NCBI GenBank assembly: GCA_934230415.1
Contig: CAKQEW010000003.1
Span: 73,837-137,836 of the forward strand
Direction of reading: 5' to 3'
DNA length: 64,000 nt
Origin: an uncultured Alphaproteobacteria bacterium
Lineage (GTDB): Bacteria > Pseudomonadota > Alphaproteobacteria > Rs-D84
Shown: piece by piece, positions 27,588 through 45,726 of the stretch
Numbering within the stretch: the stretch's first letter is position 1
Layout of the letters: every line of letters begins with the position of its first letter
Made by a program: the position numbers and the translations under genes
Notes under the pieces: generated by a model
Told to the model about the DNA's origin: nothing
The model's input: the letters and a program-made list of their open reading frames with translations, nothing else
The model's database searches: none

Positions 27588-28259
27588 ATGTCATACATGT
27601 GGAACGAATTCAATATAAAAACCATACGCGCAGAAACAGTTGTTTTCCGCGATGGTGTGCTGTGCGATGATTTATCAACATTAAAATCAACCACAATCAA
27701 TAAAAAATACGATTTACCGGTTCATATCATTTATGTTGGCAAAATTGCCGGTGATTGCCGGTTAAATATTGATATTTTGGTCCCGGACCAGCCGGTTATT
27801 TTATCAGTAAATGTAAAAAATGATTTGCCGGCCTTTTTGAACATTTTTATCAAAAACACCGGGAAAAATTCTGAATTACGTGGTAATATTTTACTGGAAA
27901 ATAACAGCACCCTGGATTACACATGCACCGCCCAGCATAATGGGGCAAACACGACAATTTTGTTAAAAAACAAGTTAATTGCCGGCAAAAACACAAAATC
28001 GCGTATGTCTGGGACCGCAATAATTGGTCGCGATGCCCGTGATGCGGTGTCCGATGTTGCGTTTTCAGCCATCGCTGATAAAACCGCGCGGATTGAATTT
28101 ACCCCGGCCCAGCGTATATCAATCGCCCCCCAGCGTGCCGACCACAGTGCATCAATTTATCGTCCAACGGATTGCCAAATTGAATATTTACGCGAAAGTG
28201 GCCTGGGCACCGCAGAGGTTGCCACCGCAATCCGTGAAGCATTTATGAACGATTTTTAA
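27588..28259 (+). CDS. short SufB/SufD-family protein (Fe-S assembly-like)
   Basis: C-terminal ...ADHSASIYRPTDCQIEYLRESGLGTAEVATAIREAF resembles the conserved SufBD C-terminus (H.A..G.ID.EQLFYLRSRGI..EA..L...F). At 223 aa it is about half the length of SufD. Confidence 0.45.
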   Translation: MSYMWNEFNIKTIRAETVVFRDGVLCDDLSTLKSTTINKKYDLPVHIIYVGKIAGDCRLNIDILVPDQPVILSVNVKNDLPAFLNIFIKNTGKNSELRGNILLENNSTLDYTCTAQHNGANTTILLKNKLIAGKNTKSRMSGTAIIGRDARDAVSDVAFSAIADKTARIEFTPAQRISIAPQRADHSASIYRPTDCQIEYLRESGLGTAEVATAIREAFMNDF

Positions 28260-28342: not shown

Positions 28343-28477
28343 TTATTTTTTCTTAAATCCCTGTTTGGCTTTTAATTTAGGATTGGTTGGGTCAATCAAG
28401 ATAACCTGTTTACCACGGCGAATTTGTTTTATGTTACCGCGTTTTTTCCAAGCCTTTAATGAACTTAAAAATTTCAT
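28343..28477 (-). CDS. rpmJ: ribosomal protein bL36 paralogue, cysteine-free (non-zinc) type; not in ORF track (44 aa)
   Basis: Hand-translated MKFLSSLKAWKKRGNIKQIRRGKQVILIDPTNPKLKAKQGFKKK. Closely resembles L36 (MKV.SSLKS.K.R...CQIVKRRG...VI.K.N.RFKA.QG) but lacks all Zn-ligand Cys/His. ATG 28475-28477 (minus) with a GGA RBS. Confidence 0.65.
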   Translation of the reverse strand: MKFLSSLKAWKKRGNIKQIRRGKQVILIDPTNPKLKAKQGFKKK

Positions 28478-28561
28478 ATCTAAATCCTTTATTGCGTGGT
28501 GATTATAAACGCTTTTTGTAAAAAATCAAATAATTATTATATTTTTGTTGTAGTTATTGGC

Positions 28562-28767
28562 CCTGTTTATATTGTTGAAAACATTTGTTAACTTTTTATA
28601 AACAGGTTTTCAACATAAAAATCCGCGGTTTTTGTGGGGTTGGTGCAATTGTGTTGATAAATATTGGCAAAAATAAACATGTTTAAAAAGTGCCAGTTTT
28701 CATCATTTTTAACAATTTTCAGGGGTTGCTTTTTATACTTGTTGAAAATTGTTGAAATTGTTATAAT
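28562..28767 (+). promoter_or_regulatory. virB3-virB4 upstream control region with TTGTTGAAA repeats and a sigma70-like promoter
   Basis: TTGTTGAAA at 28572, 28739 and 28749 (direct), with inverted copy GTTTTCAAC at 28606. A 10-bp inverted repeat CCTGTTTATA/TATAAACAGG sits at 28562 and 28597. TTGTTG (28739), 17 nt spacer, TATAAT (28762). GGAGAGAGG RBS before the ATG at 28800. Confidence 0.4.
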
Positions 28768-28799
28768 TCAAGCACAGGGAGAGAGGAAATCATATCCAC

Positions 28800-29096
28800 A
28801 TGAAACAACAAGTACTGAAAGCAATAGCGAATCCAGCGCGCATATTTTATGTGCCATATATGATGGCGGTGCTGAATTTTGCCATACAATTCATGATTTT
28901 TATTGTTGTTTTCGTTATTTCGTTAATCACGACACGTGGTAAAAATCCAATCAGTCCGATGTGGTTTCTGATTTCTGTGTTAATTGTTCATTTGATTTTG
29001 GCGGCATTTGCAAAGCGTGACCCACAACTGGGCCAGATTTTGTCCGCAAAAATTCAATTGTTCAAAAAAAAGATACCTAACAGATTGGCGGCATAA
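28800..29096 (+). CDS. virB3: type IV secretion system protein VirB3/TrbD-like
   Basis: 98 aa two-TM protein with L.KA.ANPARIFYVPYMMAVLN resembling the VirB3 L..A.TRPA...GVP motif. Sits immediately upstream of virB4. Confidence 0.7.
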   Translation: MKQQVLKAIANPARIFYVPYMMAVLNFAIQFMIFIVVFVISLITTRGKNPISPMWFLISVLIVHLILAAFAKRDPQLGQILSAKIQLFKKKIPNRLAA

Positions 29097-29099
29097 GAG

Positions 29100-31514
29100 A
29101 TGAATGGATTTTTTGAATATTTTGCAGGCAGCGGATTCCCAATCACAACCATGATAATGGTAATGGCGGTGATTTTTATATTCGTGGTTCTGATGATGTA
29201 TATGCCGGCAATTGCCCGTCGTGTGTTGCCGGGGTTTGGGTATATGCGTTATTCGCGGTACCTGCCGTTTCAGACGGTATATAACGATAATTCGTTGGAA
29301 TTGGCGGATGGGTCACTGCTGCGTGTTTATCGTGTTGCCGGTGTCCAGACCAGCATGCAGGACGCAATCACGCGTGAAAAATTCTTGGATTTACGTGCAC
29401 AGTTGTTTAACCAAATTCGCGATCCAAATGTTGTATTGCGTTTCTTTATGACACGTGATGCGACCGATGAAAATATGCATTATGAATTTGACCAGCCTGT
29501 ATTACAGAAAATTTACGATAAATGGGAATCCCAGGGATTACGCATTTTCCTGAATAATTACTATATCGTGCTGTCTGTTGGTGGGGCGAACGCGCGTGAT
29601 AAACTGAATCAGTATGGAAATTATCTGGAATCAATATTGGCGGCGTACAAGCCGAAATTATTAAAGAATAACGACCGGGATAACATGGCGCGATTCTTTG
29701 GCCGGATATTGTCACCGATTACAAAGCCGGAACCAGCGGTTGCGGATAATCAGATTGCAGATTTAGCAACGGTTGATGATGTTGAATTCTTGCCAGACGG
29801 CGTTGTTCGCTATATCAGTGGTGGCACACAATCATTTGCCGCAATGATGTCATTCCGTACGGCGCCTGATTACCTGGACGAAGAATTCTTTGATACCATA
29901 TCAACAATTCAGACAGAAATGATTTGTATGAATGGTTTTCAAATTATGGGCACGGCGGATGTAGAGGTTGCAATGCGCCAACGTCAATCATCGGACGAGG
30001 CCGAAACCGGTTCTGCAATCCAGCAGATATCAGATGCCCAGAGTGCGATGGATGAAAATATCGCTGGAAATCAGAGTTTGGTTAATTATTACCCGTTGTT
30101 TGTGATATTCGGTAAAACGCGCGATGAACTGAATCATTATGTTGATGAATTTAAAAAGATATCGGCATCATTTGGTGTATCGCCGATTTGTGAAACATAT
30201 GCGGCACGTGTTTCATGGTTTGCCCAGATTCCAGGATTTGATGTTTTCCCGCGCAGTTTTAAATTGCTGTCACGGACGGCCGCAATCAGTATCCCAATGT
30301 CAACCCAGCCACGTGGTGTTGCAAATTGCGATTGGGGTCCGGGGCCATTGGTTGTATTTCCAACCGCCCAGGGCACGCCATATCAATTTCAATTCCATGT
30401 ATCTGATAAACCGGCGGCGGTGGGGCACACGTTAACAATCGGGCCAACCGGTGGTGGTAAAACAACATTGTTCAGTTTTCTGATTGCGCAATCATTGCGT
30501 CACCAGAAATTAAAGGCGTTTTTCTTTGACCGCAACAAAGGGGCAGAGATATTTACATTATCAGTTGGTGGCAAATATATCACCATGCAAGGTAAAGAGA
30601 AAAACGAAGAAAATAACGCATTTTTGACACACTTGAATCCGCTGAAAATGCCGGACAGTGCGGCAAATCGTGCGTTCCTGCGTCGGTGGTTTGCGATTAT
30701 TACCGGGCAATCAGATGCGAATTCCGCAGATGAAATTGCGCGTGCGGTTTCTGTGAATTTTGATTATCTGTCGGACAAAGACCGTGTGTTAAAGAACCTG
30801 TGGGAGAGTTGTTTTTCATCATCTGGCAATATGCGCCCGGCGTTGAAAAAGTGGGTTGATCCGTTGCAATATGGTGACATATTTAATGAAACGTCTGATA
30901 CATTGGATTTGCATTCGCGTCTGACCACGTTTGATTTCACAGAAATATTACAAGATGAAACGTTGGCGCCGGCGGTGATTTCGTACATTCTGCACAGAAT
31001 TAATAATATAACTGTATCAGGGGGGAATCCATCACTGATTATGATTGACGAAACCGCGCCGATGTTGGAAAACAAGATGTTCCGTGATAACTTTATTGTT
31101 GGCCTGCAAGAAGGACGTAAAAACCGCCAGGCGTACATGGTTGCGTTCCAGCGCGCAAATGTTTTGGATAAACTGGGGATTGGTGATGTCGTTCGTGGCC
31201 AGGCGCAAACTGTGCTGTTTTTCCGTAATCCGGCGGCCGATGCATCGGATTATGCGCATTGGAATTTAAATCCGTTGGAAATGGCATTTATCCAGGGCAA
31301 GGCATATCCAAATCTGAAACGTGCGGTATTGTTGTCGCGACCGGTAACGGGTGAATCTGTGATTTTGAATACTGAATTAGGCGGTCTGGGCAATTTATTG
31401 CGTTTGTTTGAATCAGGGCGTTCGTCGGTGTTGTTGGCCGAAGAATTGTATAAACAATATGGCAATAATTTCGTGTCTGAATATTTGAAAAAGCAGGGCG
31501 CGGGTGACCTGTAG
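29100..31514 (+). CDS. virB4: type IV secretion system ATPase VirB4/TrbE
   Basis: 804 aa. N-terminal membrane-associated region. Walker A GPTGGGKTTLFSFLIAQ. Walker B/DE region IMIDETAPML. Size and architecture typical of VirB4/CagE. Confidence 0.85.
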   Translation: MNGFFEYFAGSGFPITTMIMVMAVIFIFVVLMMYMPAIARRVLPGFGYMRYSRYLPFQTVYNDNSLELADGSLLRVYRVAGVQTSMQDAITREKFLDLRAQLFNQIRDPNVVLRFFMTRDATDENMHYEFDQPVLQKIYDKWESQGLRIFLNNYYIVLSVGGANARDKLNQYGNYLESILAAYKPKLLKNNDRDNMARFFGRILSPITKPEPAVADNQIADLATVDDVEFLPDGVVRYISGGTQSFAAMMSFRTAPDYLDEEFFDTISTIQTEMICMNGFQIMGTADVEVAMRQRQSSDEAETGSAIQQISDAQSAMDENIAGNQSLVNYYPLFVIFGKTRDELNHYVDEFKKISASFGVSPICETYAARVSWFAQIPGFDVFPRSFKLLSRTAAISIPMSTQPRGVANCDWGPGPLVVFPTAQGTPYQFQFHVSDKPAAVGHTLTIGPTGGGKTTLFSFLIAQSLRHQKLKAFFFDRNKGAEIFTLSVGGKYITMQGKEKNEENNAFLTHLNPLKMPDSAANRAFLRRWFAIITGQSDANSADEIARAVSVNFDYLSDKDRVLKNLWESCFSSSGNMRPALKKWVDPLQYGDIFNETSDTLDLHSRLTTFDFTEILQDETLAPAVISYILHRINNITVSGGNPSLIMIDETAPMLENKMFRDNFIVGLQEGRKNRQAYMVAFQRANVLDKLGIGDVVRGQAQTVLFFRNPAADASDYAHWNLNPLEMAFIQGKAYPNLKRAVLLSRPVTGESVILNTELGGLGNLLRLFESGRSSVLLAEELYKQYGNNFVSEYLKKQGAGDL

Positions 31515-31520: not shown

Positions 31521-32138
31521 ATGTTTTACCGCAATGTGTTGATTTTTTGTATTGCGCTGGCGCCGAATATTTCGGTGGCAGATGATTGTTTGCCGTATAA
31601 ACTAAATCCGGCGGTTTATATCAGTGCGCCATCATGGACAAAACAGGTTGTGCAACCGCTGCAACCAATGGATTTATTGCATGGCAATGTCATTGCCACA
31701 ATGACAGATAATTATGATATTGTCGCCGATATTACATCCATAGAAGACGGATTTTGTGTTGCGGTAAAATCAGTTGATGCAACCGTTGGGTACAGTGATT
31801 TCTTGGTCCAGATTGATATGCGCCATGTGCCGGATTCGTGTTCGTACAACGCGATTTTATCACACGAAGATGGGCATATTCGCGCATACCTGTCGGTAAT
31901 TGACGATTTTAAACCAGAATTACAACGTGCAATATATTCAGCCGCAGATTCAATTACACCAATATTTGTGAAATCTGGGGCGGATGTATCCGCGGCGGTT
32001 GATGAATTAAATTTGGAATTACAGGCGCATCCTGATTTAATATTGGTAAAACAAAAAATTCAGGCCGCCCAGGAAATTCGTAATAAACGTGTTGATCAGA
32101 ATGATACTGGTGAAACCCTGAAACGCTGTTTGTTATAG
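31521..32138 (+). CDS. secreted hypothetical protein, possible DUF922-like zinc-metallopeptidase fold
   Basis: Signal peptide MFYRNVLIFCIALAPNISVA. HExGH-like motif LSHEDGHIRAY. RBS AGGAA before the ATG. Assignment is from memory of the DUF922 HE.GH motif only. Confidence 0.4.
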   Translation: MFYRNVLIFCIALAPNISVADDCLPYKLNPAVYISAPSWTKQVVQPLQPMDLLHGNVIATMTDNYDIVADITSIEDGFCVAVKSVDATVGYSDFLVQIDMRHVPDSCSYNAILSHEDGHIRAYLSVIDDFKPELQRAIYSAADSITPIFVKSGADVSAAVDELNLELQAHPDLILVKQKIQAAQEIRNKRVDQNDTGETLKRCLL

Positions 32139-34924: not shown

Positions 34925-35749
34925 ATGACAGATACGACACTGAAACTGTTCCAAGATACAAATATCAGAACCCAATGGGATGCGGATGCTGAAAAGTGGT
35001 ATTTTTCCATTATTGATGTTATTGCGGCATTGACCGGCACAGACAACCCAAGACGTTATTGGTCTGACTTAAAACGCAAGTTAATTCAGGAAGGTAGTGA
35101 GTTGTACGAAAAAATCGTACAACTGAAATTACAATCGTCCGATGGCAAGTTTTATAGTACTGATGTGGCGGACACAGAACAGTTGTTGCGTTTGATTCAA
35201 TCTGTGCCGTCTAAGAAAGCTGAACCCTTTAAGTTATGGTTGGCCAGTGTTGGTAGTGAAAGAATTGATGAAATATCAGACCCTGAAATCGCAATACAAC
35301 GTGCATTAAATTACTACCAGCGGTTGGGATATTCTGATGAATGGATTGCCCAGCGGTTGCGTTCTATTGAAATTCGTAAAGACCTGACTAATCAATGGGA
35401 CAGGTGTGGAATTAAACAGGGGTTGGAATATGCTTTGCTGACCGATGAAATTACACGTTCTTGGTCGGGGATGAAGACCAAAGAATATAAACAGCACAAA
35501 GGGTTAAAGAAAGAATCCCTGCGTGATAATATGACGAATGCCGAATTGGTTTTGAATATGTTGGCGGAATTGTCTGCAACCGAAATTGCAAAAAATGAAA
35601 AACCAATGGGATTGGCTGAAAATATGGCGGTAGCCAAGCGTGGTGGCAATGTCGCCCGTCAGGCACGGTTACAATTGGAACAAGAAACCGGTAAAAAGGT
35701 TGTGTCGGGTGCAAATTCAAAACTGTTAAAGCGTGTGGATAAAGAATAA
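34925..35749 (+). CDS. BRO-N domain protein (phage antirepressor/DinD-like)
   Basis: N-terminal LKLFQDTNIRTQWDADAEKWYFSIIDVIAALTG matches the Bro-N/KilA-N-like DNA-binding module. 274 aa. First gene inside the island. Confidence 0.55.
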   Translation: MTDTTLKLFQDTNIRTQWDADAEKWYFSIIDVIAALTGTDNPRRYWSDLKRKLIQEGSELYEKIVQLKLQSSDGKFYSTDVADTEQLLRLIQSVPSKKAEPFKLWLASVGSERIDEISDPEIAIQRALNYYQRLGYSDEWIAQRLRSIEIRKDLTNQWDRCGIKQGLEYALLTDEITRSWSGMKTKEYKQHKGLKKESLRDNMTNAELVLNMLAELSATEIAKNEKPMGLAENMAVAKRGGNVARQARLQLEQETGKKVVSGANSKLLKRVDKE

Positions 35750-36931
35750 ATGTCTTCAAGTCGTATCAATTTTACAGAAGGGGCGTTGAAAAACCTGAGT
35801 ATTCCCACATCGGGTCAGGCGGTGTATTATGACACAGGCAGCCATGATGGATTGTGTGTCATTGTGACCTATGGCGGGGCAAAGACTTATTATGCATATA
35901 TGAAATTTCAAGGCACACCAAAGCGTGTAAAAATCGGGCGTGTGGGGCAGATTAAACTGTGTGATGCCCGTCGGCAGGCACATAGCTTAAAAGAAATGGC
36001 GACCAATGGCACAGACCCCAGTGTTCAAAGACAGGAAAATCTGAATGATATGACGTTGCGCCAGTTTTATGAAAATATCTATAAACCCGAATATTCCACA
36101 ATCTATAAAAAGCAACATTCGGTTGTGAATGATGACAGTGTGTTCAAGCACAGGTTGAATCAATTCCATAATCGCAAGTTGTTAAGCATTAAGGCGGACG
36201 AGATTGAACACCTGCATGCGGAAACTTGTAAAACACACAGTCCATATACGGCCAATCGGGTGTTGTCGCTGATTAAGCATATGTATGTGATTGCAGTGAA
36301 GAAAGGTCTGATGGGGGGGCGTGGCAATCCAGCCGGCGGAATTCGGAAATTTACAGAAAAAAGTCGGGACAGATTCTTGAACGGCGATGAATTAAAGCGG
36401 TTTTGGACGGCCTTGGCGGAATGCAAAAATGATGTATTCAGGAACTATGTGATGATATCACTGATGACAGGGATGCGGCGGAATAATGTGCTGACTATGC
36501 GCTGGGAACATGTGGATTTTACGTCGGGGTTGATATATGTGCCTGATTCCAAGGGTGGGCAACCGTTGCAGATTCCAATAGTGAATCAATTGCGTGAATT
36601 ATTATTAAAAATCAACCAAGGCAAGAAAAACGGTTGGGTGTTGCCAAGTAATAAAAGTGCCAGTGGGCATCTGGAAGACCCGAAGCGTCCGTGGCAATCG
36701 TTGTTGCGGGTGGCAAACATTACAGATATGCGGATTCATGACCTGCGCCGCACAATGGGTTCATGGCAGGCGATATCAGGTGCCAGTTTGCCAGTTATTG
36801 GTAAATCACTTGGCCACAAATCCACCAGCGCAACACAGGTTTATAGCCGACTGACCGTTGACCCAATTCGTGATTCAATGCAAACCGCCACAGATAAAAT
36901 GCTGGGGTTTGTGGATTCCGACTCAAAATAA
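35750..36931 (+). CDS. int: tyrosine site-specific integrase (P4-type, N-terminal arm-binding DUF4102-like domain)
   Basis: 393 aa. N-terminal L.IP.SGQAVYYDTGSHDGLCVIVTYGGAKTYY (P4-integrase arm-binding fold). C-terminal catalytic R...HDLRRT...Y segment (MRIHDLRRTMGSW, ...ATQVYSR). Confidence 0.85.
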   Translation: MSSSRINFTEGALKNLSIPTSGQAVYYDTGSHDGLCVIVTYGGAKTYYAYMKFQGTPKRVKIGRVGQIKLCDARRQAHSLKEMATNGTDPSVQRQENLNDMTLRQFYENIYKPEYSTIYKKQHSVVNDDSVFKHRLNQFHNRKLLSIKADEIEHLHAETCKTHSPYTANRVLSLIKHMYVIAVKKGLMGGRGNPAGGIRKFTEKSRDRFLNGDELKRFWTALAECKNDVFRNYVMISLMTGMRRNNVLTMRWEHVDFTSGLIYVPDSKGGQPLQIPIVNQLRELLLKINQGKKNGWVLPSNKSASGHLEDPKRPWQSLLRVANITDMRIHDLRRTMGSWQAISGASLPVIGKSLGHKSTSATQVYSRLTVDPIRDSMQTATDKMLGFVDSDSK

Positions 36932-37073
36932 GTGTTTTTGTTGAAAAAAATACATTTTGTACGAATCGGGAATTTTAATATTTGGTTGTGAAACAGTTGG
37001 TTTTCTGCGGTTTTAAATAAGTTCTTGCTTTAATTTTGTAAAATCTATATGAATCGTGAATATTAGAAAAAAA

Positions 37074-37153
37074 GACCCGTATAAATTCACACGGGTCGGG
37101 TTCTAAGCAATGTAAAAGTGCTTAGCTTGTGGTGCTTTCACCTTACATTGCTT
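37074..37153 (+). promoter_or_regulatory. hairpin plus 11-bp inverted repeat upstream of the CD-NTase gene; candidate operator/promoter region
   Basis: GACCCGT...ACGGGTC hairpin (37074-37097). Perfect IR AAGCAATGTAA (37105) / TTACATTGCTT (37143). Downstream TTGACG-16-TATAAA (37177-37204) and AGGAG RBS before the ATG at 37220. Confidence 0.3.
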
Positions 37154-37219
37154 TATGGGGCCTTGTCAAATGTTTTTTGACGGGGGATGTTTTTGCCGTA
37201 TAAATGTAAGGAGAATAAA

Positions 37220-38074
37220 ATGGCATATACAGAAGAACAATTAATTGCTTTTACAAAGCCGCTTTCGGATACTGAAGATCAAAAGGCACAAAATTCCATC
37301 AACATGGTTCAATCGGCTATTGATAATTATGATTGGAATGTTGTTGGGTTGCAAAAACCGGAGGTGCGCTTAAAGGGGTCGTATCATAATGATACTAATG
37401 TAAAATTAGATAGCGATGTTGATACTTATGTATTGTTTACGGGGTATACATATAAGGTTTGTACGAATAGTCAATCTATCAGTCCGTATCATATGGGGAC
37501 AGGACAACCCTGGGGGTATTTCAAGGATCGTTTACATGAGGCTTTAAAAAACAAATTTGGCACGGATGTTCATCGTGGAAATAAGTCGTTTAAGATAAAA
37601 GAAAATTCATACAAACACCAAACTGATGTTGTGTGTGCATTTAGTGCGATTGATGATCGAGGTGAAAAAAATAATTGTGGTATTTGTCTGTTTCCTGATG
37701 ACGACACCGGGGTTATAATTAATTATCCTGAACAGGATACCGAAAGGGGGAATGAGAAAAATTTTTGGACAGATCATTATTACAAGAAGATTGTTCGTAT
37801 TTTTAAGGCGATAAAGAATGATGTTGGGTTAAGTACCCCGTCATATTTGATTGAATGTTTGATTAGTAATGTTGATAATCATTTAATTGCTGATAATTCC
37901 AAACGCTACAAGGATAAATTGACTGAAATAATAGATTTTTTACTTCGGTTCTTGTATGTGTCACCTGGGAGTTTTTATGAGGTTAATCAAGTTAAACCTT
38001 TGTTTCACGAAAAACAAAAATGGACGGTGGACGAGGCAGTTGGTTTTTTGCACGTGGTTAAAGAGGTATTATAA
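37220..38074 (+). CDS. CD-NTase/SMODS-like nucleotidyltransferase (putative cyclic oligonucleotide synthase)
   Basis: Pol-beta-type NTase signature GSYHNDTNVKLDSDVD (GS-x11-DVD) is near-identical in spacing to the DncV GS...SDVD motif. A further acidic cluster (AIDD, DDD) follows, then a helical C-terminal domain. 284 aa. Strong AGGAG RBS. Start chosen at the internal Met of the tracked ORF. Confidence 0.55.
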   Translation: MAYTEEQLIAFTKPLSDTEDQKAQNSINMVQSAIDNYDWNVVGLQKPEVRLKGSYHNDTNVKLDSDVDTYVLFTGYTYKVCTNSQSISPYHMGTGQPWGYFKDRLHEALKNKFGTDVHRGNKSFKIKENSYKHQTDVVCAFSAIDDRGEKNNCGICLFPDDDTGVIINYPEQDTERGNEKNFWTDHYYKKIVRIFKAIKNDVGLSTPSYLIECLISNVDNHLIADNSKRYKDKLTEIIDFLLRFLYVSPGSFYEVNQVKPLFHEKQKWTVDEAVGFLHVVKEVL

Positions 38075-38643
38075 TGATAACAAAATATGATACTTATTTT
38101 ATTGGAGGGATTGCGATAGTTGCGTTTTTTCTGGTGGATTTTATTTCGCCAAAAAATACAATTTTGCAAAATTTAACCGAGTGTATAGGGTGGACATCAA
38201 CCGTATGTTTGGCATCGTACGCTTTGTTTAATAAATATTTGTGGAGAAAATGGCCGATATGTAAGTTTATAAATCGTCCATATGTTGGTGGAATATGGTT
38301 TGGAAATATTCATTATAATTTTAATGGTGTTGCGGGCAAAAAAAGGGTAACAGTGCAAATTCAGCAAGATTTTTATAATATAAAAATTTGTTTAAAAACA
38401 GACATAAATTTAAGTAAAAGTTGTACAGCGGAATATTGTGCCGAAGAATCAAAAATATTTTACGTGTATAAAACGGATCCACATTCAAGAATGAAGGATA
38501 TAAACCCAGTTCAGTATGGGGCTGCACAGATAGTTATAGACCAGAATAATCTTAATAAAATTCGTATTGAGTATTGGACAGATCGTCGAACAAAAGGCTA
38601 TATGGATTTAAAGCGTGTATTGAACAATAAACGGCGTTTTTAG
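38074..38643 (+). CDS. small 2-TM protein with C-terminal beta-rich domain (candidate Cap15/SLATT-like membrane effector)
   Basis: Translationally coupled (TAATG overlap) to the NTase gene. Two N-terminal hydrophobic helices (IGGIAIVAFFLVDFI, CIGWTSTVCLASYALF) and a roughly 120-aa soluble domain. No catalytic motif. Confidence 0.45.
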   Translation: MITKYDTYFIGGIAIVAFFLVDFISPKNTILQNLTECIGWTSTVCLASYALFNKYLWRKWPICKFINRPYVGGIWFGNIHYNFNGVAGKKRVTVQIQQDFYNIKICLKTDINLSKSCTAEYCAEESKIFYVYKTDPHSRMKDINPVQYGAAQIVIDQNNLNKIRIEYWTDRRTKGYMDLKRVLNNKRRF

Positions 38644-38737
38644 AATTTTTTTGCATTTTTTTGGGGTTCTTGTTATTATGGGCATTGAATCCGATGGAAA
38701 TTGGGTTCGGGGCCGTGATAAGCCTAGTTTTAATCCG

Positions 38738-38827
38738 GTGCAGTTTTGCATCGTTATTTGATGTGGTGCAAACTGCACTGTTATCAACCCTGACTCGTAT
38801 GTCGGGGGGCTGTCTGTTATATAACAG
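38738..38827 (+). promoter_or_regulatory. structured intergenic region: 12-bp-stem hairpin plus perfect 14-bp palindrome upstream of mod
   Basis: GTGCAGTTTTGCA...TGCAAACTGCAC (38738-38778) and CTGTTATATAACAG (38814-38827). Lies between the 2TM gene and the Type III mod gene. Confidence 0.3.
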
Positions 38828-38961
38828 GGGAAACCCGAAAGCAGCAGGAATCCAGTGATTAAAACTGATTTTATCAACTCCCCGACCGTCAATTTCAAGA
38901 TTGGCGGTTGTTTTTTTAGGCCGTGTTTCCATTTGGGTTCCGAAACAAAAAGGAACGAGAT

Positions 38962-40857
38962 ATGTGGGATGGGTTGCAGGCGGTACGCAAGGAAATACAA
39001 GAATCTGTTAATACAATTCATGATAACGAAGAAATTCATGATGGGTTTCAATTACGTTTTGTGGGTAAGAGTTATGCCAAATTTGTGACCGGGTTGCCCA
39101 GCGAGACGGTCTTGGTTCCGGATAATGATTGGAATAATCAAGAAAACAATAAAGATAGCCAGAATATATTTATTACCGGTGATAATTTAGATGCGTTAAA
39201 ACATCTGGTGAATGCGTATTCCGGTGCGATTAAGATGATATATATTGACCCACCATATAATACTGGGGCGGATGGGTTTGTTTACAAGGACAGTTTTAAA
39301 TTTTCAGATGATGACCTGAAACAGAAATTAGGGTTTTCGGATACAGAGTTGGCACGTTTGCGTGCGCTGGATGGCAAGTGTTCGCATTCGGCATGGTTGA
39401 CCTTTATGCTGCCACGATTGATATTGGCAAAACGCCTGTTGTCAGACGACGGGGTGATGTTTATCAGTATTGACGATAACGAGCAGGCAAATTTGAAAAT
39501 GATTTGTGATGAGGTGTTTGGTGAGAGTAATTTTCATGTTTGTTTTCCTAGGGTAACAAAGAAAGGGGGAAAATCTTCTGATACGACAGCAAAAAATCAT
39601 GATTATGTGTTAATGTATAAAAAAACATCTTATGCAGATATTGTAGGGGTTGAACACAATGATGACTCTTATTGTAACAAAGATGAATTTTTTGATGAGA
39701 GGGGATATTATAAGTTAAATCAAACTTTAGATTATGATTCATTGGGCTGGGTTAGGTCTTTGGATTATCCGATAGAGATAGAAGGTGAAGTTTTTTATGC
39801 TGGTGGCAGCAAAGAAGAATATAAAAAGAGACAAGAGGGACAACACGGACGTGCGGACTGGGGATGGAGATGGAGTGTAGATTTATTTGATTTTGGTGTC
39901 AAGAATGGATTTATTGAAGTTAAGCGTGGTGGAGTTAGGCCACGTATTTATACAAAAACATATCAAAATGTTAAAATTGAGAAAATTAATAACAGTTATA
40001 AAATTGTCAAAATTGATAGAACTAAACCTTTGTCTACTCTTGAGTTTACAGATAATAAATATTCAAATGATTCTGCTACAAAAGTGATAGCTGAATTGTT
40101 GGGGAAAGGGGTTTTTGAGTATACAAAAGCTCCAGAATTAATATCGTCTTTGATGAAGCTTGTTGCAGGTAATGATTTTACAATCCTTGATTTCTTTGCA
40201 GGGTCGGCGACTACGGCGCAAGCGGTTATGCAGTTGAACAAGGATGACGGTGGTAATCGTAAATATATCATGGTGCAATTGAATGAAGCGGTGAAACCGG
40301 GTAGCGAGGCGGAAAATCAGGGATTTAAGACCATTGATGAAATTTCACGTAAACGTATTAAACTGGCGGCGGAACAAATTGGTGATACGTCTGGGTTTAA
40401 ACACTATAAGTTAGCCAAAGTAACCGATGATTTAATATTAGATAAAATTGATGAATTTGACCCCACAAAGCCCAATCTGTTGTCGGATGATATGGTTAGT
40501 CCGTTTTCAGGTGATGCGCTGGGGACGGGGTTAAATGCGTCTGGATTGGATACTTTATTAACCACATGGATGGTTGATGATGGATATCCGATAAATACCA
40601 AGGTTGAAGAATTTAAATTTGGAAATTATGTTGCATATTCACCGGTGGGGTCACGACGCTTGTATCTGATTTCAGATGGTTTGGATTCAAATGCCACACA
40701 AGATTTGTTGAATAAAATCGGGTGTAATGAAATCAGTGTTCAAACAATCATTATTTATAATCATTCGTTTAATTTTACGATGCTGACCGAGTTAAAAAAT
40801 AACCTGAAGCATGTGTTGGATGATGATAAAAAGATTGAAATTATAGAGAGATTTTAA
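38962..40857 (+). CDS. mod: Type III restriction-modification methyltransferase (Mod, N6-adenine, beta class)
   Basis: DPPYN catalytic motif (IYIDPPYNTGADGFVYKD). SAM-binding FxGxG-like motif (LDFFAGSATTAQAV). Central variable target-recognition region. ATG 38962 with AAGGAA RBS; the tracked ORF starts at an upstream GTG. Confidence 0.8.
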   Translation: MWDGLQAVRKEIQESVNTIHDNEEIHDGFQLRFVGKSYAKFVTGLPSETVLVPDNDWNNQENNKDSQNIFITGDNLDALKHLVNAYSGAIKMIYIDPPYNTGADGFVYKDSFKFSDDDLKQKLGFSDTELARLRALDGKCSHSAWLTFMLPRLILAKRLLSDDGVMFISIDDNEQANLKMICDEVFGESNFHVCFPRVTKKGGKSSDTTAKNHDYVLMYKKTSYADIVGVEHNDDSYCNKDEFFDERGYYKLNQTLDYDSLGWVRSLDYPIEIEGEVFYAGGSKEEYKKRQEGQHGRADWGWRWSVDLFDFGVKNGFIEVKRGGVRPRIYTKTYQNVKIEKINNSYKIVKIDRTKPLSTLEFTDNKYSNDSATKVIAELLGKGVFEYTKAPELISSLMKLVAGNDFTILDFFAGSATTAQAVMQLNKDDGGNRKYIMVQLNEAVKPGSEAENQGFKTIDEISRKRIKLAAEQIGDTSGFKHYKLAKVTDDLILDKIDEFDPTKPNLLSDDMVSPFSGDALGTGLNASGLDTLLTTWMVDDGYPINTKVEEFKFGNYVAYSPVGSRRLYLISDGLDSNATQDLLNKIGCNEISVQTIIIYNHSFNFTMLTELKNNLKHVLDDDKKIEIIERF

Positions 40858-40860
40858 CCG

Positions 40861-43647
40861 ATGAAAAAGCATTTGGAACAATTACCACATCAAGAAGATG
40901 CGATTAAAGCGATAATGGATGCGATGCAAGGATGTCGTGATATTGATAATAATACCGATGTTTATGCAAATCCAAACATTAGTGTAAAGTCAGGGATTGA
41001 TGTGAAAATGGAAACAGGGACGGGTAAGACGTATGTTTATACCCGTATGATGTTCGAGATGTTTCAAAAATACGGAATTAGTAAATTTATTATATTTGTT
41101 CCTTCATTGGCGATTAAAGAAGGCACTAAGTCGTTTATAATGGCTGATTACAGTCGGCAACATTTTTCAGAATTATATGAGAATGTGCATATTGATTTGG
41201 ATGTTATTAATGCAGGTGATTTTAATACTAAAAGGGGTCGCAAAACAATACCGTCTGCGTTAATGGATTTCTTGGAAGGGACACGGAACGACCATAAAAG
41301 CATAAAATGTTTATTGTTGAATGATGCGATGTTGACCAGTAAGTCAATGACCCGTGATGACTATGACCAAACGTTGATAAATTCTTGTTCGTGTCCGATT
41401 GAATCAATTAAGATGACCAGACCGGTGGTTATTATTGATGAACCACACAGGTTTAATAAAAATGGCAAGGCATGGACAGCAATACAGCAATTAAAACCAC
41501 AGTTGATTGTCCGTTTTGGGGCGACTTTCCCGATGATTCAAATAGGTACAGGCAGAAACAAGGTTATAAAGAAGGATTATGATAATCTGGTGTATGACCT
41601 GAATGCGATACAGGCGTTTAATGAAAATCTTGTTAAGGGAATTAATGTTTTGTTTCCAGAGATAGATGCCGTAGATGCAGCATATAAATACAAGGTAAAA
41701 TCAGTTAGTGATAAAAAACTGGTTTTGAATGATGGACGGGCAGACTATGAATTGAAGATAGGTGATAAGTTGCCGGCTGATTTTGAAGGCGGATTGAATT
41801 ATGAAGGTAAAAAAGTGCTGTCAAATGACCTTGAATTGTCAGAAGGGATGGTGTTGATTCCAAAATTGTTTTCGTGTTCATATCAAGAATTATTATTAAA
41901 TCAGGCCATTAATGCACACTTTATGGCGGAACGTGAAAACTGGATACGTGAAAATTCAGGGGTGAATCCAGCTAGGATTAAAACACTTTCGTTGTTCTTT
42001 ATTGATGATATCAAATCGTATCGGTCGGATGATGGGTGGTTAAAATTGACTTTTGAACGCCTGTTAAGAAAAAAGTTAACTGAATTAATAGAAAAAGAAA
42101 CGGTTGCAGAATATAAACAATTTTTACAGGAAAGCTTGAATCATATACCAGAGACACACGGTGGATATTTTGCCGAAGATACAGGTAAAACAGGTGATGA
42201 AGCGATACAGGCAGAAGTGGATGATATCTTGCGTAGTGGGCAAAAATTGTTGCAGTTTAAGGATGCGTCAGGTAATTGGATATTACGCCGATTTTTGTTT
42301 TCAAAGTGGACATTGCGCGAAGGGTGGGATAACACAAATGTGTTCACGATTACCAAACTTAGAACCAGCGGCAGTGAAAATAGTAAAATACAAGAGGTTG
42401 GGCGTGGACTGCGTTTGCCGGTTGATGAAACTGGGAAAAGATTGTCTGATGACGATTTTAGATTGAATTTTATCGTGGATTGGTCTGAAAAGGAATTTGC
42501 AGAAAAACTGCGTTCAGAAATCAATGGTGATGGTGGTGTTGTGGATTCAATGAAGATAACGGATGTTATATTAAATGCACTAGTATCACGAAAATATGCG
42601 GATAATACGGCTGTTGCAAAGGCTAAATTATTGATAGACGGTATTATTGACACTAATGATGCGATATTAAAGGTTGAAGAGCTGTTAAAACTGTTGCCGG
42701 AACAATTCCAATTAAAGAAAAATGCGATTATTACTAATCACTTGGGAAAGAGTGTCGTAAAGCTGAGAAAGAATAATTGGATGCCGCTAAAAGAACTGTG
42801 GGGACGTGTTGTTCGCCGGTATATGATTAAGTATGATAATATTTCGCTCGATGATTTGTTAGAAATGGCAAAAGGGGCAGTGGAAGACAGTTTTACACCG
42901 GCTTTTGGTCGTGTTAAATGTTATATATTGGAAGAACAGGATGGGCAAATGATTGTAAAGTCAACAATCGTTGATACCAGAATTCCATTGGATAAGATAT
43001 CGTATGGCTTGTTTATTCAAAAGCTTTCAAAGCGGACACAGGTTGCGGTAAATGTTTGGCATCAGGCTATGTGTGAAAAGTATCCAAATGGTCTAAAATC
43101 AGATGATTTTAATGTTCAGAGCTTAGAAAATATCATAAATAAATTTTTGAAATCTTTTGCGGATGTGTTTGCACAACGGTTTGAATACAGTTCGTTGGAA
43201 TTTACTGCAAATACCAGTTTGATAAAAAATGGCGAGTTTGTAGATGAAGTTCCACAGGGTGCGCTGGGGACACATTTGGCGGAAGATGCCTGTGTTGAAA
43301 GTTGTTATATGTATGACAAAAAGTGTTATGACACAGAGCCAGAACACGAGATATTAAAATTACAGCCACATGGGGTTGTGACTGCATTTGGTAAGTTGCC
43401 TAGACGTTCTATTAAGGTGCCGTTGTATACGGGTGGGACAGCATCGCCGGACTTTGTGTATGCCATAGAAAGCGATAATGGTGTGAAATTGAACCTGCTG
43501 GTTGAGGTTAAGGCGGATAATGAGCGGCGTAGCGATTCAATTATCACCAAGAGCCAGCAAGAGTTCTTTAGGCAAATAAAAGGTGTTGAATGGCGCAAGG
43601 TTGTCAAGGCTGATGATTTGCGAAGTGCGATAGAAAAATTGGTTTAG
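40861..43647 (+). CDS. res: Type III restriction enzyme Res subunit (SF2 helicase plus PD-(D/E)xK nuclease)
   Basis: 928 aa. Helicase motif I (METGTGKTYV), DEAH-like motif II (VVIIDEPHRF), motif VI region, C-terminal endonuclease segment. Immediately follows mod with a 3-nt gap. Confidence 0.8.
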   Translation: MKKHLEQLPHQEDAIKAIMDAMQGCRDIDNNTDVYANPNISVKSGIDVKMETGTGKTYVYTRMMFEMFQKYGISKFIIFVPSLAIKEGTKSFIMADYSRQHFSELYENVHIDLDVINAGDFNTKRGRKTIPSALMDFLEGTRNDHKSIKCLLLNDAMLTSKSMTRDDYDQTLINSCSCPIESIKMTRPVVIIDEPHRFNKNGKAWTAIQQLKPQLIVRFGATFPMIQIGTGRNKVIKKDYDNLVYDLNAIQAFNENLVKGINVLFPEIDAVDAAYKYKVKSVSDKKLVLNDGRADYELKIGDKLPADFEGGLNYEGKKVLSNDLELSEGMVLIPKLFSCSYQELLLNQAINAHFMAERENWIRENSGVNPARIKTLSLFFIDDIKSYRSDDGWLKLTFERLLRKKLTELIEKETVAEYKQFLQESLNHIPETHGGYFAEDTGKTGDEAIQAEVDDILRSGQKLLQFKDASGNWILRRFLFSKWTLREGWDNTNVFTITKLRTSGSENSKIQEVGRGLRLPVDETGKRLSDDDFRLNFIVDWSEKEFAEKLRSEINGDGGVVDSMKITDVILNALVSRKYADNTAVAKAKLLIDGIIDTNDAILKVEELLKLLPEQFQLKKNAIITNHLGKSVVKLRKNNWMPLKELWGRVVRRYMIKYDNISLDDLLEMAKGAVEDSFTPAFGRVKCYILEEQDGQMIVKSTIVDTRIPLDKISYGLFIQKLSKRTQVAVNVWHQAMCEKYPNGLKSDDFNVQSLENIINKFLKSFADVFAQRFEYSSLEFTANTSLIKNGEFVDEVPQGALGTHLAEDACVESCYMYDKKCYDTEPEHEILKLQPHGVVTAFGKLPRRSIKVPLYTGGTASPDFVYAIESDNGVKLNLLVEVKADNERRSDSIITKSQQEFFRQIKGVEWRKVVKADDLRSAIEKLV

Positions 43648-44303
43648 TCCGAATATACATCTGTGGCGGTTTCGCGTGATTGCATATTTGGATTAAATCC
43701 GTATTTGTTTCCATGCCCGTTGCGTTCTTCGGCGATTGTTTTCTTGATATCTGCTGTTTCTATGGCGAGACTAATTGACCGCCATTTGCGAACAAGTCGT
43801 TCAATACAATGTGTTTTGCGAATTTGTAAGAAATAGTTGATGTCATAAACGGTTTTTCGTTCACGCCAGTGTGTAATTTTATTATGCTTTCGTTGTGGTG
43901 GCAGGTTACTGTTTTGAAGCTCAAGAATCTTTTGGTCGCAAATTTCCATTTGCTCTAAAAACCATTGTTCGGTTTTGTAACATCGTTGAATTTTATTTTC
44001 GTATCTGTCCAGTAATTCAAACGCATCACGTTGTTTTATTTTTCCATCTGCACGTATACGAATGTCATCTGCTTCTAGTTCTTGCCATTCTTTCTTGTGT
44101 TTGGCGTCGTTTAGTGCGGTTTGTATGAATTTTTGTTCGTATTGCTGTTGAAAGCGTTTCAGAAAATCGGACTGGGTCTGTGATGCGGTTTCAAACAATT
44201 TTCCAATGTCTGTGTAGGCAAATTCGTCTGCAGGTTGAAAAGAGTTATTTTGCATAGATTTGGCATATTCTTGGTAAATGTCGTGATTTTGTTGCAGTGT
44301 CAT
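43644..44303 (-). CDS. hypothetical protein (219 aa), island-encoded
   Basis: Convergent with res, and the two stop codons overlap by 4 nt. Q/E/K-rich, no recognisable motif. Confidence 0.4.
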   Translation of the reverse strand: MTLQQNHDIYQEYAKSMQNNSFQPADEFAYTDIGKLFETASQTQSDFLKRFQQQYEQKFIQTALNDAKHKKEWQELEADDIRIRADGKIKQRDAFELLDRYENKIQRCYKTEQWFLEQMEICDQKILELQNSNLPPQRKHNKITHWRERKTVYDINYFLQIRKTHCIERLVRKWRSISLAIETADIKKTIAEERNGHGNKYGFNPNMQSRETATDVYSD

Positions 44304-44434
44304 TTTTTGTATCCTTTCCGGGGCGCACGGGTTGATAAATGATTTAATAAAAAATGATATATGTGTGTTGTTTGGGTATGTAAAATATTGACATGGTTAT
44401 GCCTTTTGTTTTCGAGTGATTATGAGTGTTCTGT

Positions 44435-44629: not shown

Positions 44630-44743
44630 GTCTTTCCGTTTCTTTTAAATCTGATTAAATCTTGCTGCGTGTTGGTAATAAAAACAAGTGCAAGCATAGC
44701 TTGCACAAATTGTTATCTTGATGAATTTACATGGTATTTTTTA

Positions 44744-45484: not shown

Positions 45485-45558
45485 ACGTATCCTTTTTGCG
45501 AAATATACTAGGTATTGCCGGGATTGCAAGGTTTTTGCTTAATAACAATTAGTGTTGT

Positions 45559-45649: not shown

Positions 45650-45726
<77 letters not shown>

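What the first reader, a model, noticed from the sequence alone, without database searches (positions are those of the whole stretch)
28562..31514. Isolated virB3-virB4 pair with a repeat-rich promoter
Only VirB3 and VirB4 are encoded here, with no VirB6/8/9/10/11/D4 nearby. A split arrangement of this kind is known from Rickettsiales-type rvh systems. The 240-bp upstream region holds three direct TTGTTGAAA copies and one inverted copy. It also holds a 10-bp inverted repeat CCTGTTTATA/TATAAACAGG and a well-spaced TTGTTG-17-TATAAT promoter. These are likely transcription-factor sites controlling the T4SS. The same AT-rich region is shared divergently with a cysteine-free L36 paralogue.
Basis: partly seen in the sequence, partly recalled or inferred. 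Interest (0 to 1): 0.5.

Follow-up and report, generated by a model that had tools for sequence, protein, structure and literature searches.

The report
Isolated virB3-virB4 operon with conserved operator array
A tiny-genome gut bacterium (Candidatus Enterousia) keeps a lone, strongly conserved three-gene piece of a type IV secretion machine behind a control region of about ten repeated 8-bp boxes, which gives a way to study how these uncultured, probably partner-dependent bacteria switch on contact with other cells.

Summary
That gene is a secreted 205-aa HExxH protein (31521-32138). No other vir gene lies within about 81 kb in this organism, or within ±10 kb of virB4 in 80 related species.

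The window is chromosome of Candidatus Enterousia, a gut alphaproteobacterium with a genome of about 0.9 Mb. The block L36 | ~315-bp spacer | virB3-virB4-orf205 is present in all 80 species. VirB4 is 78-90% identical, as conserved as housekeeping proteins.

The repeats are not chance. About ten TGTTRAAA boxes, mostly tandem pairs about 10 bp apart on both strands, hold fixed positions across the genus and in a sister genus. Neutral sites are nearly saturated over the same distances. One pair overlaps the -35 region of an invariant extended -10 promoter. No conserved RNA structure is found.

The architecture resembles ArcA/PhoB-type response-regulator operators, but no regulator was identified.

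The rest of the secretion system was not located. More distant relatives show similarly split vir islets, so a Rickettsiales-like scattered system is plausible but unproven. The L36 "paralogue" claim is unsupported.

The parts
28343..28477 (-). Ribosomal protein L36, cysteine-free 'type B' form, 44 aa, transcribed divergently from virB3
   Evidence: Pfam L36 E 3.8e-5 and NF002021 E 1.2e-6, both below their curated cut-offs. 86-98% identical in the related species where it was found.
28502..28529 (-). L36 promoter, TTGATT-16-TATAAT
   Evidence: Consensus scan scores 10 of 12. Both hexamers are invariant or nearly so in 77 species.
28564..28766 (.). Array of about ten TGTTRAAA boxes (S1-S9), mostly tandem pairs 9-11 bp apart, in both orientations
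   Evidence: Box positions and conservation per box are. The spacer is 66% identical across species against 41% at 4-fold sites. The same array is present in a sister genus, L090.
28564..28580 (+). Distal tandem pair S1 (28564-71, degenerate in this species: TGTTTATA) and S2 (28573-80, TGTTGAAA)
   Evidence: S2 has at most 1 mismatch in 76 of 77 species. S1 has at most 1 mismatch in 43 of 77.
28597..28615 (-). Inverted tandem pair S3a (28608-15, TGTTGAAA) and S3b (28597-604, TGTTTATA)
Evidence: S3a matches TGTTRAAA exactly in 77 of 77 species. S3b has at most 1 mismatch in 55 of 77.
28622..28640 (.). Variable G+C-rich semi-palindrome around an invariant TTT, flanked by an A-tract or a T-tract
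   Evidence: It folds as a weak hairpin in many species but not all. The A-run and T-run swap between species. Its role is unknown.
28652..28659 (+). Box S4 (TGTTGATA here)
   Evidence: At most 1 mismatch in 72 of 77 species.
28680..28687 (+). Box S5 (TGTTTAAA here; most species have AGTTGAAA one base to the side)
28698..28714 (-). Inverted tandem pair S6b (28707-14, TGTTAAAA) and S6a (28698-705, TGATGAAA)
   Evidence: At most 1 mismatch in 67 of 77 species (S6b) and 73 of 77 (S6a).
28740..28757 (+). Promoter-proximal tandem pair S7 and S8 (TGTTGAAA-AT-TGTTGAAA), overlapping the -35 region and the spacer
   Evidence: Present upstream of virB3 in all 80 species. In the flanking DNA only two other matches turn up: a second one inside the same spacer (L030) and one chance-level match (L040). 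Both boxes have at most 1 mismatch in 77 of 77 species.
28759..28767 (+). Extended -10 element TGTTATAAT of the virB3 promoter (also a degenerate third tandem box, S9)
   Evidence: TATAAT is invariant in 44 of 44 aligned species. The TG lies one base upstream, as read from the sequence.
28778..28790 (+). Purine-rich ribosome-binding region (GGGAGAGAGGAAA) ahead of the virB3 ATG
   Evidence: Read from the sequence. A G-rich block lies at the same place in all aligned species.
28800..29096 (+). virB3, 98 aa, two hydrophobic segments
   Evidence: PF05101 scores 26.1 bits, above its cut-off. 57-81% identical across 80 species.
29100..31514 (+). virB4 ATPase, 804 aa, with an N-terminal hydrophobic segment and intact Walker A and B motifs
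   Evidence: TIGR00929 E 3.6e-107. TrwK E 4.6e-33 with aligned motifs. 78-90% identical in 80 species.
31521..32138 (+). orf205: a secreted or periplasmic 205-aa protein with conserved Cys23/79/107 and an HExxH motif (H115-E-D-x-H119). It is the third gene of the operon.
   Evidence: - It starts 6 nt after the virB4 stop.
- Present in all 80 species.
- 769 homologues, none with a Pfam domain.
- Invariant residues are listed.
- The model has pLDDT 90.6.
- Homologues lie next to virB3-virB4 in L091 and L088.

Best explanation
**What it is.** This is a chromosomal, vertically inherited operon, virB3-virB4-orf205, of Candidatus Enterousia. VirB3 and the VirB4 ATPase form the inner-membrane energising module of a P-type (VirB-like) type IV secretion system. 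orf205 adds a periplasmic HExxH protein of unknown role, possibly a small metallopeptidase. The other parts of the machine are presumed to be encoded elsewhere in the ~0.9-Mb genome, as split islets. This is inferred, not shown.

**How it is transcribed.** Transcription starts at an extended -10 sigma-70 promoter (TGTTATAAT, 28759-67) with a poor -35.

**How it is probably controlled.**
- The promoter lies at the end of a 200-bp array of about ten TGTTRAAA boxes. They are arranged mainly as head-to-tail pairs about one helical turn apart, in both orientations.
- One pair covers the -35 region and the spacer.
- The most likely mechanism is cooperative binding of an oligomerising DNA-binding regulator. 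The best guess is a winged-helix response regulator of the OmpR/PhoB/ArcA type.
- Such a regulator could either replace the missing -35 contact, giving activation as with PhoB or VirG, or occlude the promoter, giving repression as with ArcA.
- The distal pairs, about 167 bp upstream and hence on the same face of the helix, together with phased A/T tracts, would allow looping.

**Shown and inferred.** Shown: the genes, the operon layout, the isolation of the locus, the promoter elements, the boxes and their conservation. Inferred: the identity of the regulator, the sign of regulation, and the existence of the rest of the secretion system.
For: **Gene identities and intact ATPase motifs.**

**Operon layout.** The gaps are 3 nt and 6 nt, and the next gene is convergent.

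**Conservation of the block.**
- The block is present in all 80 GTDB species representatives found, even where the flanks are rearranged.
- VirB4 is 78-90% identical. TopA is 68-87% and DnaG 64-84%.

**Selection on the spacer.**
- Mean pairwise VirB4 identity is 81% while 4-fold sites are 41% identical. Random expectation is 27%.
- The spacer is 66% identical, against a random expectation of 32%.

**The boxes.**
- They hold fixed offsets in 77 species.
- The S7-S8 pair is in 80 of 80 species. In the neighbouring DNA it recurs only inside the same spacer (L030) and at one chance-level site (L040).
- A sister genus (VirB4 58% identical) has the same array upstream of virB3, with a tRNA in place of L36.

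**DNA-level rather than RNA-level function.**
- There is no consensus RNA structure: -4.1 kcal/mol and no covariation.
- A-tracts and T-tracts swap between species.

**Resemblance to known operators.**
- The ArcA repeat element is ATGTTAAAAA-1-ATGTTAAAAA. ArcA sites hold 2-5 repeats and overlap sigma-70 elements. PhoB binds such repeats head to tail (PMC4173790).
- VirG binds vir boxes upstream of vir genes (PMC4086400).

**Split vir islets in relatives, all in housekeeping contexts.**
- L124: virB3-virB4-orf60-virB8-virB9.
- L088: virB3-virB4 with a solitary virB11 3 kb away.
- L091: virB3-virB4-orf205 homologue.
Against: - No regulator gene was identified, and there is no binding evidence.
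- Box spacing is 9-10 bp. ArcA and PhoB sites are spaced 11 bp.
- No second promoter with the box pair was found in about 84 kb of this genome, so a regulon could not be shown.
- No other T4SS gene was found in any Enterousia DNA available. A VirB11 search seeded from a relative returned only other lineages.
- The box contains TTGAAA, which resembles a -35 hexamer.
Confidence: 0.6

Rival explanations
1. The module is stand-alone or repurposed. Enterousia has lost the rest of the type IV secretion system. VirB3-VirB4-orf205 then works alone, or with other envelope machinery such as the nearby R64-type pilus genes (PilO-like, ATPase and platform protein at 49001-53688).
For: - No VirB6/8/9/10/11/D4 was found in 1.64 Mb of Enterousia DNA around the locus or in 81 kb of this genome.
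- None of the 120 listed best VirB11 hits came from Enterousia.
- In many species the pilus-like genes lie only about 5-8 kb downstream of the block.
- orf205 is a lineage-specific partner with no known T4SS counterpart.
Against: - Only about 9% of any one genome was examined.
- To my knowledge, VirB4 has not been shown to act without a channel.
- Relatives with the same VirB4 clade carry virB8, virB9 or virB11 on separate islets, so dispersal is the pattern in this clade.
- The link to the pilus genes runs through housekeeping lpx genes. In this window it is broken by a 13.6-kb insertion.
Confidence: 0.15
2. The boxes are not operator sites for a dedicated regulator. They might be stacked -35-like or UP-like promoter elements giving several start sites. 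Or they might be low-affinity DnaA boxes: TTTTCAACA matches TTWTNCACA at 8 of 9 positions. In that case they would tie expression to the replication initiator.
For: - The box contains TTGAAA, which resembles a -35 hexamer.
- S2 lies 16 nt upstream of a TATAAA/TATTAA hexamer.
- The similarity to the relaxed DnaA-box consensus is from my own knowledge.
- Reduced genomes have few regulators, so a general factor is plausible.
Against: - Only S7-S9 have an invariant -10 partner. The other boxes have no conserved -10 at the right distance.
- Boxes occur on both strands as head-to-tail pairs, which fits dimer binding better than promoters.
- GC skew does not change sign here, so this is not the origin.
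- The mismatch to the DnaA box falls in the conserved CCACA core.
Confidence: 0.15
3. The conserved spacer encodes a structured leader or a small RNA that controls virB3-virB4 after transcription starts.
For: - The spacer is long (~315 bp), its length is conserved, and it is under selection.
- Many species have a small G+C hairpin followed by T residues at 28622-28645.
Against: - RNAalifold on 44 species gives -4.1 kcal/mol. The only pairs are between box copies, with no compensatory changes.
- The invariant -10 lies only 32 nt from the ATG, so most of the spacer is upstream of the likely start.
- The hairpin is absent in several species.
- A-runs swap with T-runs, which would not preserve an RNA.
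- There is no Rfam match.
Confidence: 0.04
4. The pair is a decaying remnant or duplicate of a conjugative element (ICE or plasmid) inserted in the chromosome.
For: VirB4 is typical of conjugative elements, and a separate integrase island lies 3 kb away.
Against: - The block is at the same housekeeping locus in 80 species.
- It is under strong purifying selection and has intact motifs.
- There is no relaxase, integrase or repeat boundary next to it.
- The island at 34.9-45.7 kb is a separate, species-specific insertion that is absent from most species.
Confidence: 0.03

Closest known systems
[quoted passage not shown]
   Same: - It is chromosomal, vertically inherited, and split into islets among housekeeping genes in a reduced alphaproteobacterial genome.
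- virB3 lies directly upstream of virB4.
- Protein sizes are almost identical: R. typhi VirB3 95 aa and VirB4a 805 aa, against 98 and 804 aa here (PMC2653234).
   Different: - No VirB6 genes follow; an HExxH protein follows instead.
- The organism is in order Rs-D84, not Rickettsiales.
- The rvh hallmarks are duplicated B4/B8/B9, multicopy B6 and no B5 (PMC11077975). They could not be checked.
- VirB4 scores well below the curated cut-offs of every equivalog model.
ArcA-P operators of Escherichia coli (OmpR/PhoB-family direct-repeat sites)
   Same: - The repeat element ATGTTAAAAA is nearly the same sequence as the box here, (T)TGTTRAAA(A).
- Repeats are head to tail, about one helical turn apart.
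- A site holds two to five repeats.
- Sites overlap sigma-70 promoter elements (PMC4173790).
   Different: - Spacing here is 9-10 bp, not 11 bp.
- Boxes occur in both orientations over 200 bp.
- ArcA itself is, as far as I recall, a gammaproteobacterial protein, and no regulator was identified here.
- This is a resemblance in site architecture only.
VirG/vir-box control of Agrobacterium vir operons, and PhoB/pho-box promoters
   Same: - A response regulator binds short boxes just upstream of the start of type IV secretion genes (PMC4086400).
- In PhoB promoters, the box pair takes the place of a -35 element next to a good -10. This point is from my own knowledge.
   Different: - No VirA/VirG pair was seen.
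R388 TrwK / Agrobacterium VirB4 (canonical contiguous VirB operons)
   Same: The same ATPase family, with aligned Walker motifs.
   Different: - These operons are contiguous, virB1-virB11, and often lie on mobile elements.
- Here the gene is separated from all channel genes and is a core chromosomal gene.

Membership tests
VirB4/CagE/TrbE ATPase family | Profile match to the family over the ATPase region | tested here: met
   PF03135 scores 34.3 bits against a cut-off of 21. TIGR00929 gives E 3.6e-107 over residues 176-798, although its 359 bits are below that model's trusted cut-off of 643.
VirB4/CagE/TrbE ATPase family | Intact Walker A and Walker B motifs | tested here: met
   GPTGGGKT and IMIDET align with the TrwK motifs.
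VirB3 family | Profile match, about 100 aa, two membrane segments, gene directly upstream of virB4 | tested here: met
   PF05101 scores 26.1 bits against 23.9. There are two hydrophobic stretches with conserved flanks. The gap to virB4 is 3 nt.
rvh (Rickettsiales vir homolog) T4SS | Scattered chromosomal islets of vir genes | tested here: inconclusive
   The pair is isolated in at least 81 kb, but no second islet was found in Enterousia. Relatives of the same VirB4 clade do show islets.
rvh (Rickettsiales vir homolog) T4SS | Islet A layout: virB3-virB4 followed by multicopy virB6 | tested here: not met
   The next gene is orf205, with no TrbL/VirB6 domain. No VirB6 homologue lies within ±10 kb in 80 species.
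rvh (Rickettsiales vir homolog) T4SS | Duplicated RvhB4, RvhB8 and RvhB9, and no VirB5 (PMC11077975) | not testable with these tools
   This needs whole genomes. Only ±10 kb around given proteins could be fetched.
rvh (Rickettsiales vir homolog) T4SS | Host organism belongs to Rickettsiales | tested here: not met
   Records are named Candidatus Enterousia, which GTDB places in order Rs-D84 (PMC12306168). Some NCBI records say 'uncultured Rickettsiales'.
Sigma-70 extended -10 promoter | TATAAT with TG one base upstream, at a suitable distance from the start codon, and conserved | tested here: met
   TGTTATAAT lies at 28759-67. TATAAT is invariant in 44 of 44 species and ends 32 nt before the ATG. 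The -35 matches at only 3 of 6 positions. The start site is not mapped.
OmpR/PhoB/ArcA-type direct-repeat operator | Head-to-tail repeats about one helical turn apart | tested here: met
   S1-S2, S3a-S3b, S6b-S6a and S7-S8-S9 are spaced 9-11 bp apart.
OmpR/PhoB/ArcA-type direct-repeat operator | A cognate winged-helix response regulator that binds the repeats | not testable with these tools
   No regulator gene lies in the window or the flanks.
Type B (zinc-free) ribosomal protein L36 | Profile match and absence of the zinc-binding cysteines | tested here: inconclusive
   NF002021 gives E 1.2e-6 but 28 bits against a cut-off of 70. Pfam L36 gives 24.1 bits against 26.1. There is no Cys in the 44 aa. 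Whether a second L36 exists cannot be tested.
Small zinc metallopeptidases (zincins / minigluzincins) for orf205 | HExxH on an active-site helix within a zincin-like fold | tested here: inconclusive

The most novel reading that the evidence does not exclude
Enterousia, and perhaps its whole clade of reduced gut alphaproteobacteria, has no outer-membrane core, VirB6, VirB11 or coupling protein. The VirB3-VirB4-HExxH module would then be a minimal translocation or assembly engine. It would work on its own or be plugged into the neighbouring type IVb-pilus-like machinery, under a dedicated multi-site switch. This would be a new kind of VirB4-based apparatus in a diderm bacterium with a partner-dependent lifestyle.
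Probability: 0.1. Interest if true: 0.85.

Novelty: new variant of a known kind. Interest (0 to 1): 0.45.

Why it matters
Candidatus Enterousia and its order Rs-D84 are widespread, uncultured gut bacteria. Their genomes are 0.75-1.0 Mb, and they have no respiration and no standard nutrient transporters. A partner-dependent life has been proposed for them, but no contact machinery has been described (PMC12306168).

This work adds two things:
- **A candidate machine.** A secretion-system ATPase module is as conserved as their housekeeping genes, which makes it a concrete candidate for that contact machinery.
- **A candidate switch.** The regulatory array is conserved across the genus and gives a defined DNA probe. 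It can be used to look for the regulator, the regulon and the signal without a culture.

The conserved linkage of an unknown HExxH protein to VirB3-VirB4 in lineages with only 39-42% VirB4 identity also nominates a new accessory component of type IV secretion.

Tried and rejected
- **Structured RNA.** RNAalifold on 44 species gave no structure or covariation. Rfam found only tRNAs.
- **Terminator or attenuator at 28622-28640.** The hairpin is weak and missing in several species.
- **Replication origin.** GC skew does not change sign.
- **Other promoters with the box pair.** There are none in the window beyond chance. In 80 flanking loci the only other matches are one inside the same spacer and one at chance level.
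- **Hidden vir genes among unannotated ORFs.** Inspection and clustering of ORFs from the 80 loci showed outer-membrane proteins, rhamnose genes and defence genes, but no vir genes.
- **Finding the rest of the system.** I seeded a VirB11 search from a relative (L088).
  - The listed best hits were other organisms.
  - One was a ~1.9-Mb gut alphaproteobacterium with virB8-9-x-10-11.
  - The others carry a solitary virB11, and where a TopA gene was present for comparison it is only 47% identical to the window's.
- **Matching contig lengths** between the VirB4, orf205 and VirB11 hit lists gave no shared contig.
  - The afdb50 fold library was unavailable.
  - The Begmatov 2023 Enterousia paper is not held.
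- **Not run.** A 16-base box pattern would be swamped by chance matches, and no Enterousia seed existed for the other vir proteins.


Full report
**Where the window comes from**

The exact VirB4 protein is found on human-gut metagenome contigs, including Hadza samples. A scan of one genome per species found it at 78-90% identity in the 80 best loci. Their records are named Candidatus Enterousia, 'uncultured Rickettsiales' or Alphaproteobacteria MAGs, and include a closed 958,618-bp genome, OZ007020.1.

Enterousia belongs to order Rs-D84. Its genomes are 0.75-1.0 Mb, it has no TCA cycle, respiration or standard transporters, and a partner-dependent life has been proposed for it. That paper does not mention a type IV secretion system (PMC12306168).

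**Checking the observation**

- **virB3** (28800-29096) passes the Pfam VirB3 cut-off.
- **virB4** (29100-31514) matches the VirB4 profiles strongly. It has Walker motifs that align with TrwK of R388.
- **Neighbours are housekeeping genes:** mreB, mreC, PBP2, rodA, topA, dnaG, ychF, a SufBD-like gene, L36, an ABC-F gene, lpxK, lpxC and gyrB.
- **No other vir family** appears among the window's ORFs of 150 aa or more or in 10 kb beyond each end.
  - The inverted 9-mer matches at 8 of 9 positions. The 10-mer TGTTGAAAAC / GTTTTCAACA is exact.
  - The -35 hexamer is poor at 3 of 6, so the consensus scan skipped the promoter. The -10 is of the extended type, TGTTATAAT.

**A third gene**

orf205 (31521-32138) starts 6 nt after the virB4 stop.

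- It has a signal-like N-terminus.
- It has conserved cysteines at 23, 79 and 107, and a conserved HExxH motif.
- It has 769 homologues of about 205 aa, none with a Pfam domain.
- It has no relative by sequence in the PDB.
- Foldseek finds nothing.

**Conservation of the block**

- In all 80 species the order is L36 (-), a ~310-325-bp spacer (longer in a few species), then virB3, virB4 and orf205. The genes on either side are rearranged in several species.
- In many species orf205 is followed directly by DUF374-lpxK-lpxC and the pilus-like genes. These lie at 45.9-53.7 kb in the window. The ABC-F gene and the low-GC island at 32.1-45.8 kb are therefore insertions.
- VirB4 is as conserved as RodA or YchF, and more conserved than TopA or DnaG.
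- Over 400 species pairs, VirB4 protein identity is 81% while its 4-fold sites are 41% identical. Random expectation is 27%.
- This is a core gene under strong purifying selection, not a remnant.

**The spacer**

It is 66% identical between species, against a random expectation of 32%, so it is itself under selection. Alignment of 77 and of 44 species shows the following.

- **The L36 promoter** is invariant.
- **The virB3 promoter block** CTTGTTGAAAAYTGTTGAAATTGTTATAAT is almost invariant.
- **A series of 8-bp TGTTRAAA boxes** sits at fixed offsets.
  - + strand: S1-S2
  - - strand: S3a-S3b
  - + strand: S4 and S5
  - - strand: S6b-S6a
  - + strand: S7-S8, followed by S9, which is the extended -10
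- Most boxes form head-to-tail pairs 9-11 bp apart.
- S3a, S7 and S8 have at most one mismatch in 77 of 77 species.
- The window's own species has several degenerate boxes (S1, S3b, S4, S5, S6a). That inverted repeat is simply the S1 and S3b half-sites.
- The S7-S8 pair occurs upstream of virB3 in 80 of 80 species. In the flanking DNA it recurs only inside the same spacer (L030) and at one chance-level site (L040).
- In a sister genus with 58% VirB4 identity, the same array (TGTTAAAA boxes) sits upstream of virB3. L36 is replaced there by a tRNA-Met. The array therefore belongs to virB3.
- In a 42%-identity lineage, TGTTAATA boxes are eight times denser upstream of virB3 than in the rest of the locus. 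That DNA is 13% G+C, so this is weak evidence.

**What the array is not**

- **Not a structured RNA.** RNAalifold gives -4.1 kcal/mol and no compensatory changes. It pairs only box copies with each other.
- **Not a clear terminator.** A small G+C semi-palindrome around an invariant TTT forms a weak hairpin in many species but not all.
- **Acts as DNA, not RNA.** Runs of A swap with runs of T at the same place, which fits DNA bending rather than RNA.
- **Not an origin.** GC skew stays positive across the region.

**What it resembles**

- The ArcA repeat element is ATGTTAAAAA-1-ATGTTAAAAA. ArcA sites hold two to five repeats and overlap sigma-70 elements. PhoB-family proteins bind such repeats as head-to-tail dimers (PMC4173790).
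- VirG, of the same protein family (from my own knowledge), binds vir boxes upstream of Agrobacterium vir genes (PMC4086400).
- I therefore propose a winged-helix response regulator, or another oligomerising factor, that binds cooperatively and possibly loops the DNA. The exact TTGTTGAAAA copies at S2 and S7 are 167 bp apart, about 16 turns.
- Whether it activates by replacing the weak -35, or represses by occlusion, cannot be told from sequence.
- No regulator gene was found.

**Where the rest of the machine is**

I could not find it.

The nearest VirB4 representatives outside the genus are 58, 42, 39 and 36% identical. Their contexts are informative.

| Locus | VirB4 identity | Context |
|---|---|---|
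| L091 | 39% | virB3-virB4 followed by an orf205 homologue (E 7e-8, motif HEQKH) |
| L088 | 42% | orf205 homologue divergent upstream of virB3, and a solitary virB11 3 kb away |
| L124 | 36% | virB3-virB4-orf60-virB8-virB9 among housekeeping genes |

Split chromosomal islets are therefore the rule in this VirB4 clade, and the orf205 linkage is old.

A VirB11 search seeded from L088 returned only other organisms.

- **A ~1.9-Mb gut alphaproteobacterium.** It carries virB8, a 566-aa VirB9, an unknown 1138-aa protein, a 1530-aa VirB10, virB11, an 887-aa VirB6 and a double-HTH regulator.
- **Low-GC lineages with a solitary virB11.** Where a TopA gene was present for comparison, it is only 47% identical to the window's.

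tblastn with all these vir proteins finds no channel-gene homologue in 1.64 Mb of Enterousia DNA.

**Comparison with rvh**

- Rickettsia islet A is virB3-virB4a-virB6a-e, with VirB3 of 95 aa and VirB4a of 805 aa (PMC2653234).
- The rvh hallmarks are duplicated B4, B8 and B9, multicopy B6 and no B5 (PMC11077975).
- The sizes and the scattering here are alike. The B6 adjacency is not met, the order differs, and the hallmarks are untestable here.
- I treat rvh as the closest analogue. I do not file this locus as a member.

**Verdict**

The locus is a core virB3-virB4-orf205 operon with an extended -10 promoter. That promoter sits inside a genus-wide conserved array of ArcA-like boxes. It is a new variant of known kinds: a split chromosomal VirB-type system and a direct-repeat operator. 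The open questions are whether the rest of the machine exists, and which protein reads the boxes.

Noticed in passing
window 34925-45726: A low-GC (36-39%) island that is absent from most other Enterousia species. It holds a Bro-N protein, a tyrosine integrase, a CD-NTase-like gene plus a Cap15 effector (a CBASS defence system), and type III restriction-modification mod and res genes. It ends at tRNA-Met 45650-45726.
   Followed up: partly
window 48557-53688: A cluster resembling the R64 thin (type IVb) pilus: a small lipoprotein, a PilO-like protein (PF06864), a secreted coiled-coil protein, a 543-aa GspE/PilB-type ATPase and a T2SSF platform protein. In many species it lies only about 5-8 kb downstream of the virB4 block.
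   Followed up: partly
window 59565-60026: A 153-aa protein with the N-terminal domain of the phage major tropism determinant (Mtd_N, E 2e-16), next to tRNA-Met 60067-60143. No reverse transcriptase was seen nearby.
   Followed up: no
window 27588-28259: A SufBD-like ORF of only 223 aa, corresponding to the C-terminal part of the SufBD core. It is conserved at 51-70% across species.
   Followed up: no
window 28618-28645 and alignment A1 columns 78-105: At one fixed place in the spacer, species carry either an A-run or a T-run next to a G+C semi-palindrome with an invariant TTT centre. The stems vary in a partly compensatory way (CCGG/CCGG, CTTG/CAAG, TTAG/CTAA, CACAG/CTGTG), but several species have no stem.
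   Followed up: partly
L093-L108 (for example L093:1-20969): A common ~1.9-Mb, 49% GC gut alphaproteobacterium has an unusual vir cluster: virB8, a 566-aa VirB9, an unknown 1138-aa protein, a giant 1530-aa VirB10 with Bflower-type repeats, and virB11. On the opposite strand are four unknown proteins, a double-HTH_3 regulator, an 837-887-aa VirB6 and a ~1050-aa M23 peptidase.
   Followed up: no
L109-L123 (for example L109:8933-10966): Low-GC (33-36%) gut alphaproteobacteria, some recovered from the same studies as the window, carry a solitary 321-aa virB11 between lptFG and a sigma-factor gene. The same lptFG-orf-virB11 order is seen in L088.
   Followed up: partly
L088:296-1288: The lineage with 42% VirB4 identity (29% GC) encodes an ankyrin-repeat protein close to its vir genes. 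This hints at a eukaryote-associated lifestyle.
   Followed up: no
window 36938 and 56996: These are the two other exact TTGTTGAAA copies in the window. One lies just after the integrase gene and one inside the end of gyrB. They are single boxes at chance frequency.
   Followed up: partly
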